Positions 880-3,619 of a DNA stretch of 64,000 bases are shown in pieces (the first letter of the stretch is position 1; every line of letters starts with the position of its first letter). Below the pieces are notes generated by a model. That model ran no database searches. It saw only the letters and a list, made by a program, of their open reading frames with translations, and was not told the DNA's origin. The stretch lies in the NCBI GenBank assembly GCA_030390025.1, contig CM059432.1, forward strand, positions 71,612,001 to 71,676,000. The letters are read 5' to 3'. The position numbers and the translations under genes were made by a program. This stretch comes from Squalus acanthias (lineage: Eukaryota).

Positions 880-1260
880 ATTTAAAGTTTACTTGTACTT
901 CTTTCAATTCAGTATACTGTATTCACTGCTCATGATACTGTCTCCTCTACATTCGGGAGACAAAACGCAGATTGGGTGATCGTTTTGCTGAACACCTCCA
1001 TTCAGTCGCAAGCATGCCCCTGAGTTTCCGGTCGCTTGCCATTTTAATTCTCCTCCCCACTCCCACTCTGACCTCTCTGTCATCGGCCTCCTACACTGCT
1101 CCAATGAAGCTAAATGGTAGCTCAAGGAACAGCACATCATCTTTCGATTAAACACTTTACAACCTTCCAGACTCAGCATTAAGTTCAACAATTTCAGATC
1201 ATAATAATGCTCCCATTTTTTTCGGACAGCAGATGCTGGTATTGATTCTGCTGTTGCCAT
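880..1260 (+). mobile_element. Penelope-like element remnant (GIY-YIG endonuclease and start of 3' region)
   Basis: Translates as VYCIHCS*YCLLYIRETKRRLGDRFAEHLHSV, a GIY-YIG-like motif; 1180-1258 matches 58121-58195; ends at the CR1 insertion. Confidence 0.75.
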
Positions 1261-2606
1261 TATTCAAGAAGGGTAGTAGGGATAAACCAGGGAATTACAG
1301 GCCAGTGAGCCTAACATCAGTGGTAGGGAAATTATTGGAAAAAATTCTGAGGGACAGAATTAGTCTCCACTTGGAGAGGCAAGGATTAATCAAGGATAGT
1401 CAGCATGGCTTTGTCAGGGGGAGATCATGTCTGACCAATTTGATTGAATTTTTCGAGGGGGTGACTAGGTGTGTGGATGAGGGTAGTGCAGTTGATGTAG
1501 TCTACATGGACTTCAGTAAGGCTTTTGACAAAGTCCCACATGGGAGACTGGTCAAGAAGGTAAGAGCCCATGGGATCCAGGGTAATTTGGCACATTGGAT
1601 CCAAAATTGGCTTAGTGGCAGGAGGCAGAGGGTGATGGTCGAAGGTTGTCTTTGTGACTGGAAGCCTGTGTCCAGTGTTGTACCGCAGGGATTGGTGCTG
1701 GGTCCCTTGCTGTTTGTAGTGTACATTAATGATTTCGATATGAATGTAGGAGGTATGATCAGTAAGTTTGCAGATGACACGAAAATTGGTGGAGTGGTAA
1801 ATAGCGAGGAGGGAAGCCTCAGGCTACATGACGACATAGACGGGTTGGTTAGATGGGCAGAACAGTGGCAAATGGAATTTAACCCTGAAAAGTGTGAGGT
1901 GATGCATTTTGGGAGGACTAACAAGGCAAGGGAATACACAATGAATGGTAGGACCCTAGGAAGGACAGACGATCAGAGGGACGTTGGTGTGCATGTACAT
2001 AGATCCCTGAAGGCAGCAGGACAGGTAGATAAGGTGATTAAAAAGGCATATGGGATACTTGCCTTCATTAGCCGAGGCATAGAATATAAGAGCAGGGAGG
2101 TTATGATGGAGCTGTACAAAACGCTAGTTCGGCCACAGCTGGAATACTGTGTGCAGTTCTGGTCGCCACACTATAGGAAGGATGTGATTGCATTGGAGAG
2201 AGTGCAGAGGAGATTCACCAGGATGTTACCTGGGCTGGAGCGCTTCTGCTATGAAGAGAGACTGGACAGGCTGGGGTTGTTTTCCTTAGAGCAGAGAAGG
2301 CTGAGGGGGGACCTGATTGAGGTGTACAAAATTATGAGGGGCATAAATAGGGTAGATAAAAAGGAACTTTTCCCCTTAGTAGAGGGGTCAATAACCAGGG
2401 GGCATAGTTTCAAGGTAAGGGGCAGGAGGTTTAGAGGGGATTTGAGGAAAAACTTTTTCACCCAGAGGGTGGTTGGAATCTGGAACTCACTGCCTGAAAG
2501 GGTGGTAGAGGCAGGAACCCTCACAACATTCAAGAAACATTTAGATGAGCACTTGAAACGCCATAGCATACAAGGCTACGGACCAAGTGCTGGAAAATGG
2601 GATTAG
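1233..2606 (+). CDS. CR1 ORF2 reverse transcriptase, C-terminal part (457-aa open frame, 5'-truncated)
   Basis: Uninterrupted ORF with FADD catalytic motif; the first ~7 codons come from flanking Penelope sequence. Confidence 0.85.
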   Translation: MLVLILLLPLFKKGSRDKPGNYRPVSLTSVVGKLLEKILRDRISLHLERQGLIKDSQHGFVRGRSCLTNLIEFFEGVTRCVDEGSAVDVVYMDFSKAFDKVPHGRLVKKVRAHGIQGNLAHWIQNWLSGRRQRVMVEGCLCDWKPVSSVVPQGLVLGPLLFVVYINDFDMNVGGMISKFADDTKIGGVVNSEEGSLRLHDDIDGLVRWAEQWQMEFNPEKCEVMHFGRTNKAREYTMNGRTLGRTDDQRDVGVHVHRSLKAAGQVDKVIKKAYGILAFISRGIEYKSREVMMELYKTLVRPQLEYCVQFWSPHYRKDVIALERVQRRFTRMLPGLERFCYEERLDRLGLFSLEQRRLRGDLIEVYKIMRGINRVDKKELFPLVEGSITRGHSFKVRGRRFRGDLRKNFFTQRVVGIWNSLPERVVEAGTLTTFKKHLDEHLKRHSIQGYGPSAGKWD

Positions 2607-2686
2607 AATAGACAGGGCTTGATGGCCGGCGCGGACACGATGGGCCGAAGGGCCTCTTTCTGTGCTGTATAACTCTATGACTCTAT
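1255..2686 (+). mobile_element. 5'-truncated CR1 LINE (RT domain and 3' UTR)
   Basis: RT motifs NYRPVSLTS, QHGF, DFSKAFDKV, PQG.VLGP, FADD; 3' UTR ends in ctgtataactctatgactctat. Confidence 0.95.
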
Positions 2687-3587
2687 GGGGGAGAAATTCA
2701 GTATCGCCCCATTTGGGGCGCAATTATCGGCCGGGCGCAAAGATTAGCGCCTGGCGCTAATTATCGCCACCGACTGCAAACTTGACTTTTAACGCCCCTG
2801 GAGGTGATTGGAGCGCTAAATCAGGCGCTTCACACCTGTCTTAAGGCGCAAAGGCCAAGGAGCGAGGCGCTACCTCAGAGCGCTGGCGAAGCTCATGTGA
2901 TGTCAGTCAGCAATGGAACGCACACACAATGGCACCGGCCAGTTCTTAAAGGGGAGAGTTGATCTTGCTTTCCATCCACATCCTGCTCATTGCAGCCTTG
3001 AATCCTGGCCTGGAGAGACCTGCACATCAAATCTGCTGAAAAGAACAATGGAGAGTGCCAGGGAAAGAGCTTAGAGTGCAGCCCGCACAGTCTCTTCTAA
3101 ATCGCTACAAGGAATGGCAAATCAAAATGAACCTGCAAAGTGCTGCTCAGTACCCAAAACTCCTTCACACAGCGTTGAATCTCTCCAGAAGTCTCTCTCT
3201 CTCTCTCTCTCTCTCTCAGAATGCGTAGTTCAAAAATGGCACCAACAATAAAAGGCAGGAAGCGGTCGCCTTTAAATAGCGCTCCCCCAGTCCCTTCATG
3301 ACTGCAAAACGCTCCACTCAACCTGTCGTTGCTAGCGTCAGGCGGTAAGGCAGGGGGCGCCACTCAATATCTGCTCCGGGACGGTACCGGGGCGTTGCGC
3401 ACTCGACTGACGTCACGATCTGCTGGCGCAGGAGATCGTGGCGGTAGTGTTTAGCGCCGCCGCAAAATGTCTAGTTAATTTCGCGAGTGGCGCAAACATC
3501 GCCGCGCCCGGGCGCTAGATGCATTGTGCCCCATTAGCGCCCTTTTAAGGCGCTAATGGGAGGCACAACCAACTGAATTTTTCCCCC
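2687..3587 (+). mobile_element. PIF/Harbinger-type MITE family A, copy 1 (901 bp)
   Basis: TIRs GGGGGAGAAATTCAGT / ACTGAATTTTTCCCCC (15/16); 3-bp TSD TAT at 2684-2686 and 3588-3590; internal (CT)n; two more copies in the window. Confidence 0.92.
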
Positions 3588-3619
3588 TATGACTCTATTT
3601 ACAGCTCCTCTAGACCGCA

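What the first reader, a model, noticed from the sequence alone, without database searches (positions are those of the whole stretch)
1255..3598. The same DNA MITE sits inside the 3' tail microsatellite of two near-identical CR1 LINEs: LINE-tail targeting or a hitch-hiking CR1-MITE composite
Seen: copy 1 reads CR1..ctgtataactctatgactctat[MITE 2687-3587]tatgactctat. Copy 3 on the minus strand (61446 to 59681) reads CR1..ctgtataactctat[MITE 60520-59692]tatgactctat. CR1 subfamily, MITE family and relative orientation are the same, and shared sequence stops exactly at the end of the tail, so this is not a segmental duplication. Copies 1 and 3 also share several variants absent from copy 2 (visible in ORFs 3097, 15696, 59905). 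Established: CR1 primes reverse transcription on its terminal repeat, and some Harbingers have strong target-sequence preferences. Inference: either a Harbinger system targets (ACTCTATG)n LINE tails, or a class II MITE is being amplified by retrotransposition inside a CR1 transcript. The one-unit difference in insertion position mildly favours independent targeting.
Basis: partly seen in the sequence, partly recalled or inferred. Interest (0 to 1): 0.8.

Follow-up and report, generated by a model that had tools for sequence, protein, structure and literature searches.

The report
Harbinger-like MITEs landing in CR1 tails
Two copies of a small cut-and-paste transposon sit at the same three letters in the repeat tail of two near-identical CR1 retrotransposons, most likely because each jumped in separately and that tail resembles the landing sequence the transposon prefers elsewhere in the genome, not because the two travel together.

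Summary
Observation confirmed. MITE A (15-bp TIRs, TAT duplication) sits in the (ACTCTATG)n tail of CR1 copies 1 and 3. Hitch-hiking is disfavoured. (i) The two MITEs differ at 30 of 717 non-CpG sites, their CR1 hosts at 17 of 883 (p=0.011), and the MITEs carry different alleles at two sites that look polymorphic in the family. (ii) Copy 2, in an unrelated CR1 coding region, also abuts ACTCTAT, but with its other end. (iii) In public contigs, 166-351 MITE left ends per run lie in diverse flanks, and 98-574 CR1 tails per run go on without the MITE. The majority flank, AAAGAC-ATA-GTGTTT, has the same arms as the zebrafish Harbinger3_DR target; the tail matches 7-8 of 12 arm positions. Best reading: independent cut-and-paste insertions guided by an extended target preference that this tail happens to fit. 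Enrichment in tails and orientation inside tails could not be counted (no genome held), and a flat motif score does not fully explain 2 of 3. This scan has already noted the same pattern at least seven times elsewhere in this genome.

The parts
1255..2671 (+). CR1-type LINE copy 1, 5'-truncated; RT frame open from 1257 to its stop at 2606
   Evidence: PF00078 RVT_1 E=1.3e-35
2672..2686 (+). CR1 octamer tail before the MITE; left TAT duplication at 2684-2686
2687..3587 (+). MITE A copy 1, 901 bp, 15-bp TIRs (2687-2701, 3573-3587) with one mismatch
3588..3598 (+). right TAT duplication plus last tail unit
15465..15471 (+). ACTCTAT in the coding region of an older CR1, abutting the right end of MITE A copy 2
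15472..16372 (-). MITE A copy 2, 901 bp, inside an older CR1 (66-68% alike to copy 1's host); about 26 nt of host and the left duplication are missing
59681..59691 (-). right TAT duplication plus last tail unit of CR1 copy 3
59692..60520 (-). MITE A copy 3, 829 bp (three internal deletions against copy 1)
60521..61446 (-). CR1 copy 3, 5'-truncated, joined to the tail of an older CR1 over a 6-letter overlap
45203..45585 (+). different TIR element (383 bp, no BLAST match to MITE A) in the tail of another CR1 subfamily; duplication imperfect (ATA/ATG)
36249..42367 (.). decayed Harbinger-type element with related GGGG..AAATT ends, AAT duplication and broken DDE transposase pieces (40799-41550, minus strand); link to MITE A not shown
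   Evidence: PF13359 E=8.7e-17 and 7.3e-08

Best explanation
A non-coding, Harbinger-like MITE sits at the TAT of the octamer tail in two CR1 copies, most likely through two separate cut-and-paste insertions into already integrated CR1s, guided by an extended target preference (about AAASAC-ATW-GTSTTT) that this tail partly matches. Shown: intact TIRs, 3-bp duplications, diverse flanks with a shared majority motif, MITE-free tails, and unequal divergence of MITE and host. Inferred: a transposase plus Myb-type partner acting in trans reads the arms around the 3-bp core. An inner unit of this tail (CTC-TAT-GAC) fits the inner arm positions, the last unit lacks the downstream G, and the other CR1 tails in the window lack the S at position -3 or +3. 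This would explain why one tail unit always follows the MITE and why this subfamily is the one hit.
For: Divergence: non-CpG 30/717 (MITE) against 17/883 (CR1), p=0.011; merged events 26 against 14, p=0.010; transversions 14 against 3, p=0.002; indels 3 against 0. MITE 1 is no closer to MITE 3 than to MITE 2 at non-CpG sites (4.2% against 3.6%). Of nine sites that are about 97-99% one letter in organism B but mixed in organism A, copy 3 has its own letter at 9 (by construction), copy 1 at 6 and copy 2 at 3; copies 1 and 3 differ at 59770 and 60197. All 3 of 3 copies abut ACTCTAT, two with the left end and one with the right. Loose ends before the MITE's left terminus: 219, 166, 271 and 351 contigs in X1, X5, X7 and X9, agreement 0.38-0.39. 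CR1 tails going on without the MITE: 168, 98, 225 and 574. At the right terminus 196 contigs in X6. In the 8 terminus rows shown, the majority flank has AAA in 8 of 8, S-A in 8 of 8 and C in 6 of 8. The joined arms equal those of the Harbinger3_DR target AAACAC-CWG-GTCTTT read on the other strand, 12 of 12. Other TIR sequences appear at the same tail position: three X5 contigs leave MITE A 12 letters inside its end, X7 record 19 bridges the junction and leaves at 2729, and element 45203 lies in another tail. Depth shows no excess of the MITE's 3' end, and the bin holding the tail is no deeper than the MITE alone predicts (depth is a rough measure).
Against: On a flat count the tail sites match only 7-8 of 12 arm positions; 186 of 4397 core sites in the window score 7 or more, so 2 of 3 copies in tails is not explained without weighting the inner positions. 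With the inner motif, 3 of 19 (ATA/TAT) or 3 of 54 sites are in these tails, giving p=0.07 or 0.009, and that motif was chosen after seeing the tail. Copies 1 and 3 share five alleles against copy 2, one of them (59952) rare by depth (2% in X1, 31% in X5), and they have the same orientation. No reversed MITE A inside a tail was seen; 606 and 2561 loose-end rows were hidden. The motif is majority letters only; its two arms come from different organisms, and only copies whose flank differs from the reference are in those rows. Only 40 of 273 variant rows were shown, and a third allele could account for the remainder at 59770 and 60197.
Confidence: 0.7

Rival explanations
1. Independent insertion, but with a tail-specific boost beyond the 15-bp match: tandem sites 8 bp apart, DNA shape, or a preference that has been tuned to this abundant harmless repeat.
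For: The flat score ranks the tail only in the top 1-4% of core sites, yet 2 of 3 copies are there; other TIR families sit in tails too. Earlier unchecked notes mention an unexplained excess.
Against: Hundreds of MITE ends per run lie in unrelated flanks; copy 2 chose a single ACTCTAT outside a tail; the arms match a fish element's target, which suggests an old preference.
Confidence: 0.18
2. A CR1 that carries the MITE in its tail is transcribed through it and retrotransposed as one unit, primed on the last tail unit.
For: Same orientation, same 11-nt ending, shared block ends at the tail; five alleles shared by copies 1 and 3.
Against: MITE divergence is twice that of the host, with 14 against 3 transversions; different alleles at two apparently polymorphic sites; different tail unit; most MITE ends and most tails shown are unlinked; no 3' depth excess.
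Confidence: 0.07
3. Assembly artefact, local inverted duplication or gene conversion between the two loci.
For: Both loci are in one window, inverted; no bridging contig was shown for organism A.
Against: 3-5% divergence, three indels, different 5' ends, different unit and unrelated flanks; a duplication would give equal divergence across the block.
Confidence: 0.03

Closest known systems
Harbinger3_DR / Harbinger3N_DR of zebrafish (Sinzelle et al. 2008; primary paper not held; seen as passages in PMC3016246, and PMC2836001)
   Same: 15-bp near-palindromic target with a 3-bp core; arms equal at 12 of 12 positions to the majority flank found here
   Different: Core is ATA/ATT (TAT/AAT) rather than CWG; here the preferred site is partly matched by a LINE tail; no transposase is tied to MITE A
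PIF / mPing Tourist-type MITEs (PMC2836001, passages)
   Same: Non-autonomous TIR element, 3-bp duplication, preference extending beyond the duplication
   Different: 9-bp preference around TTA/TAA in plants, against about 15 bp around ATA/TAT here
MuTAnT, Mutator-like elements in TA microsatellites (PMC4486113, abstract); Dada elements in small-RNA genes (PMC3706591, search listing only)
   Same: DNA transposon found in a multicopy repeat
   Different: There most or all copies sit in the target repeat; here hundreds of ends per run lie in unrelated flanks
retro-DNAs of primates (PMC11195612, abstract and section 12)
   Same: The precedent for the hitch-hiking idea: DNA-transposon sequence moved by a LINE's machinery
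   Different: Retro-DNAs lack TIRs and have longer duplications and often poly(A); all 3 of 3 copies here keep both TIRs, and copies 1 and 3 have a 3-bp duplication

Membership tests
PHIS superfamily (Han et al. 2015, PMC4482050 passages) | TIRs under 60 bp starting with A or G; short AT-rich duplication, mostly 3 bp | tested here: met
   15-bp TIRs starting GGGGG in 3 of 3 copies; TAT duplication in 2 of 3, lost in copy 2
PHIS superfamily (Han et al. 2015, PMC4482050 passages) | moved by a DDE transposase of this superfamily | tested here: inconclusive
   A decayed element with related ends carries PF13359 pieces but shows no BLAST match to MITE A; the true partner was not found
PIF/Harbinger group, strict sense | 5'-TWA-3' duplication | tested here: not met
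   TAT/ATA in the window; ATA and ATT classes in contigs, TTA only as the X9 majority
PIF/Harbinger group, strict sense | target preference extending beyond the duplication | tested here: met
   AAASAC-type majority flank in the 8 terminus rows shown
PIF/Harbinger group, strict sense | two-gene autonomous partner (transposase plus Myb/SANT protein); precise excision | not testable with these tools
   no genome held; no empty orthologous site examined
NuwaI group | 5'-CWG-3' duplication | tested here: not met
Pangu group | 5'-ANT-3' duplication | tested here: inconclusive
   the ATT class fits (86, 63 and 116 contigs), the larger ATA class and TAT do not
CR1 LINE (host) | RT domain and 3' octamer microsatellite tail | tested here: met
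   PF00078; (ACTCTATG)n; octamer as a CR1 hallmark in PMC4316615 passage
CR1 LINE (host) | placement in the CR1 clade by RT tree; 3' hairpin | not tested
   the CR1 label rests on the tail, the RT domain and recall
retro-DNA / retrotransposed composite | loss of TIRs or 5' truncation within the DNA element | tested here: not met
   both TIRs in 3 of 3 copies; no 3' depth excess
retro-DNA / retrotransposed composite | equal divergence of carrier and cargo | tested here: not met
   1.9% against 4.2% non-CpG, p=0.011
repeat-specific DNA transposon (MuTAnT, Dada type) | most copies lie in the target repeat | tested here: not met
   166-351 left ends per run in diverse flanks; the number in tails was not countable

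The most novel reading that the evidence does not exclude
A vertebrate Harbinger-like system keeps the zebrafish target arms but has shifted its 3-bp core so that the replication-priming octamer of one young CR1 subfamily becomes a self-renewing landing pad, hit well above its motif score, and some MITE-bearing CR1s are then copied onward as composites: a class I and a class II element feeding each other's spread.
Probability: 0.12. Interest if true: 0.7.

Novelty: new member of a known kind. Interest (0 to 1): 0.3.

Why it matters
It is a clear case of one mobile element supplying insertion sites for another, which biases nesting statistics and can mislead repeat libraries into building false CR1-MITE consensus elements. 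The same target arms with a different core (ATA/ATT against CWG) suggest that arm and core recognition can change separately in Harbinger-like transposases. That bears on TSD-based grouping of PHIS elements and on sequence-selective integration tools. The mechanism itself, extended target preference, is known.

Tried and rejected
No genome is held, so no copy census, tree or empty-site search was done. No listed holder is on record as RNA; the one RNA-guess run laid (X20, contigs) cannot show read-through, so read-through is untested. Reversed MITE A in tails: no strand-change joint or matching loose end among the rows shown (15 of 113 joints; 24 of 630 loose-end rows); this is not evidence either way. 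X9 record 26 (2616-2707) has only 21 letters on the MITE side and was not counted as bridging. The X9 row with TIR-like letters after the first tail unit (table 5c) is a single doubtful joint and was not counted. Look-ups of earlier findings by sequence, by words and by relatives were empty. Pfam found nothing in three candidate partner-gene frames or in three of six transposase pieces. The three-way 'shared variants' count was rejected as uninformative without family alleles. Literature: six searches listed no paper whose title or abstract start describes Harbinger insertion into CR1 tails. The library lacks most subscription papers and Repbase reports, and no supplements were read, so absence from print is not established.

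Full report
Observation. The sequence is as described. Copy 1 is a 5'-truncated CR1-type LINE (RT frame open to its stop at 2606, PF00078) followed by ACTCTATG-ACTC-TAT, a 901-bp element with 15-bp TIRs, and TAT-GACTCTAT. Copy 3 has the same layout on the minus strand, with the element one tail unit earlier and 829 bp long. The shared block runs from 1753 to 3598 and stops at the tail. Copy 1 interrupts a repeat that resumes after the tail. Copy 3 begins at the tail of an older CR1 and ends inside another transposon. The label 'shark-like genome' comes from my recall of the repeat style and from earlier notes, not from a call that names the organism.

Copy 2 (15472-16372) lies in the coding region of an older CR1, and its right end abuts ACTCTAT (15465-15471). 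So 3 of 3 copies touch this 7-mer, which occurs 13 times in the window counting both strands; two copies touch it with the left end and one with the right. About 26 nt of host and the left duplication are missing beside copy 2. A different TIR element sits in the tail of another CR1 at 45203-45585. A decayed element with related ends and DDE_Tnp_4 pieces spans 36249-42367, but it shows no BLAST match to MITE A.

Test of hitch-hiking by divergence. One composite master would give carrier and cargo the same divergence. The hosts differ at 17 of 883 non-CpG sites, the MITEs at 30 of 717 (p=0.011). Merging clustered changes gives 14 against 26 (p=0.010), transversions are 3 against 14 (p=0.002) and indels 0 against 3. 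MITE 1 is 4.2% from MITE 3 and 3.6% from MITE 2 at non-CpG sites. I checked the 21 variant rows that fall in the MITE (40 of 273 rows were shown). Nine are nearly fixed for one letter in organism B and mixed in organism A. Copy 3 carries its own letter at all nine by construction, copy 1 at six, copy 2 at three. This ladder suggests three different sub-lineages, with copies 1 and 3 split at 59770 and 60197. Against this, copies 1 and 3 share five alleles against copy 2, including one rare by depth at 59952. Closer kinship is expected if both are late insertions into young CR1s, but it is also what a composite predicts.

Evidence from public contigs (no genome held; runs; 6 of 24 runs laid). 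On 2612-2761, contigs whose match starts at the MITE's first base and continues into unlike sequence number 219, 166, 271 and 351 in X1, X5, X7 and X9 (median loose length 255, agreement 0.38-0.39); a further 86, 63 and 116 start one base earlier. CR1 tails that go on without the MITE number 168, 98, 225 and 574. On copy 3, X6 shows 196 unlike flanks at the MITE's right end and 290 MITE-free tails. The majority letters next to the MITE read AAAGAC-ATA on the left (X1, X5, X7) and ATA-GTGTTT on the right (X6). These arms equal, at 12 of 12 positions, the Harbinger3_DR target AAACACCWGGTCTTT read on the other strand (passage in PMC3016246); only the core differs. Limits: majority letters without weights, arms from different organisms, only copies unlike the reference core appear in these rows, and 606 and 2561 rows were hidden. 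Depth along the MITE shows no 3' excess, and the bin that holds the downstream tail is no deeper than the MITE alone predicts, but the tool warns that depth is not copy number. Other elements seem to use the same tail position: three X5 contigs leave MITE A 12 letters inside its end (that they come from the CR1 side is my inference), and X7 record 19 bridges the junction and leaves at 2729. No bridging piece was shown for organism A (0 of 16).

How well the tail fits. With the four TIR elements removed in memory, the window has 4397 sites with an ATA, TAT, ATT or AAT core. The three inner tail sites match 8, 7 and 8 of 12 arm positions; 186 sites score 7 or more and 51 score 8 or more. With the inner motif S.C|core|G.S, 54 sites remain (19 with ATA/TAT), three of them in these two tails, so the chance of at least 2 of 3 is 0.009 to 0.07. 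That motif was picked with the tail in view, and the window was picked among 1901. The last tail unit lacks the downstream G in both copies, which accounts for the constant 11-nt ending without retrotransposition. The fit is good but not ideal, so an extra boost is not excluded.

Mechanism. Shown: structure, duplications, diverse flanks with a common motif, MITE-free tails, unequal divergence. From established knowledge: PIF/Harbinger elements need a transposase and a Myb-type protein and have target preferences beyond the 3-bp duplication (PMC2836001 passages); the octamer is a CR1 3' hallmark (PMC4316615 passage). Inferred: MITE A was moved in trans by such a pair and entered each tail after the CR1 had integrated. 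I put this at 0.70, an extra tail-specific boost at 0.18, a retrotransposed composite at 0.07 and artefact or duplication at 0.03.

Comparison and novelty. It works like Harbinger3_DR. It is not filed under PIF/Harbinger in the strict sense, because the TWA duplication is not met; nor does it meet NuwaI's CWG, and it meets Pangu's ANT only in part (PMC4482050 passages). It fails the tests for retro-DNA (PMC11195612 abstract and section 12) and for repeat-specific elements such as MuTAnT (abstract). PMC9179366 (passages) found no Harbinger in elephant shark and calls for study of other cartilaginous fish. Six searches listed no paper on Harbinger insertion into CR1 tails; subscription papers, Repbase reports and supplements were not seen. 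Seven of the eight earlier notes listed describe the same pattern elsewhere in this genome; they are unchecked and not independent support, but they pointed me to two papers. Verdict: real, explained mostly by a known kind of target preference, interest 0.3.

Noticed in passing
window 24508-28895: Gypsy-like LTR retrotransposon (label from recall of the frames) with 267-nt direct repeats 99% alike and long open gag-, pol- and integrase-like frames; looks young.
   Followed up: no
window 61430-61480: CR1 copy 3 is inserted directly at the tail of an older CR1 with a 6-letter overlap, giving a chain of old tail, young CR1 and MITE in the young tail.
   Followed up: partly
window 36249-42367: Decayed Harbinger-type element with AAT duplication, broken DDE transposase and nested CR1 pieces.
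   Followed up: partly
window 5592-7280: Second Harbinger-like relic: a weak PF13359 piece at 5939-6175 (E=3e-05, just under the cut-off) facing a frame on the other strand.
   Followed up: partly
window 43493-44202 and 53973-54701: Older relatives of MITE A (72-79% alike at one end) outside CR1 tails; their flanks match 4-5 of 6 arm positions on each side.
   Followed up: partly
window 49931-50559: TIR element with a classic TAA duplication.
   Followed up: no
window 30276-31516 and 48632-49253: Long purine/pyrimidine-skewed minisatellites (16-nt and 20-nt units), about 70% alike to each other on opposite strands; the second borders a CR1 fragment.
   Followed up: no
window 20843-21401: 49/99-nt minisatellite interrupting a LINE with a long open frame at 19143-20789.
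   Followed up: no
run X6, table 5c: One contig joins a MITE A left end to a right end 19 letters apart: two copies in tandem.
   Followed up: no
window 2721, table 7: 87-136 contigs per run (X1, X5, X7) share MITE A's first 35 letters and then continue with one other sequence: a sister family with the same end.
   Followed up: no
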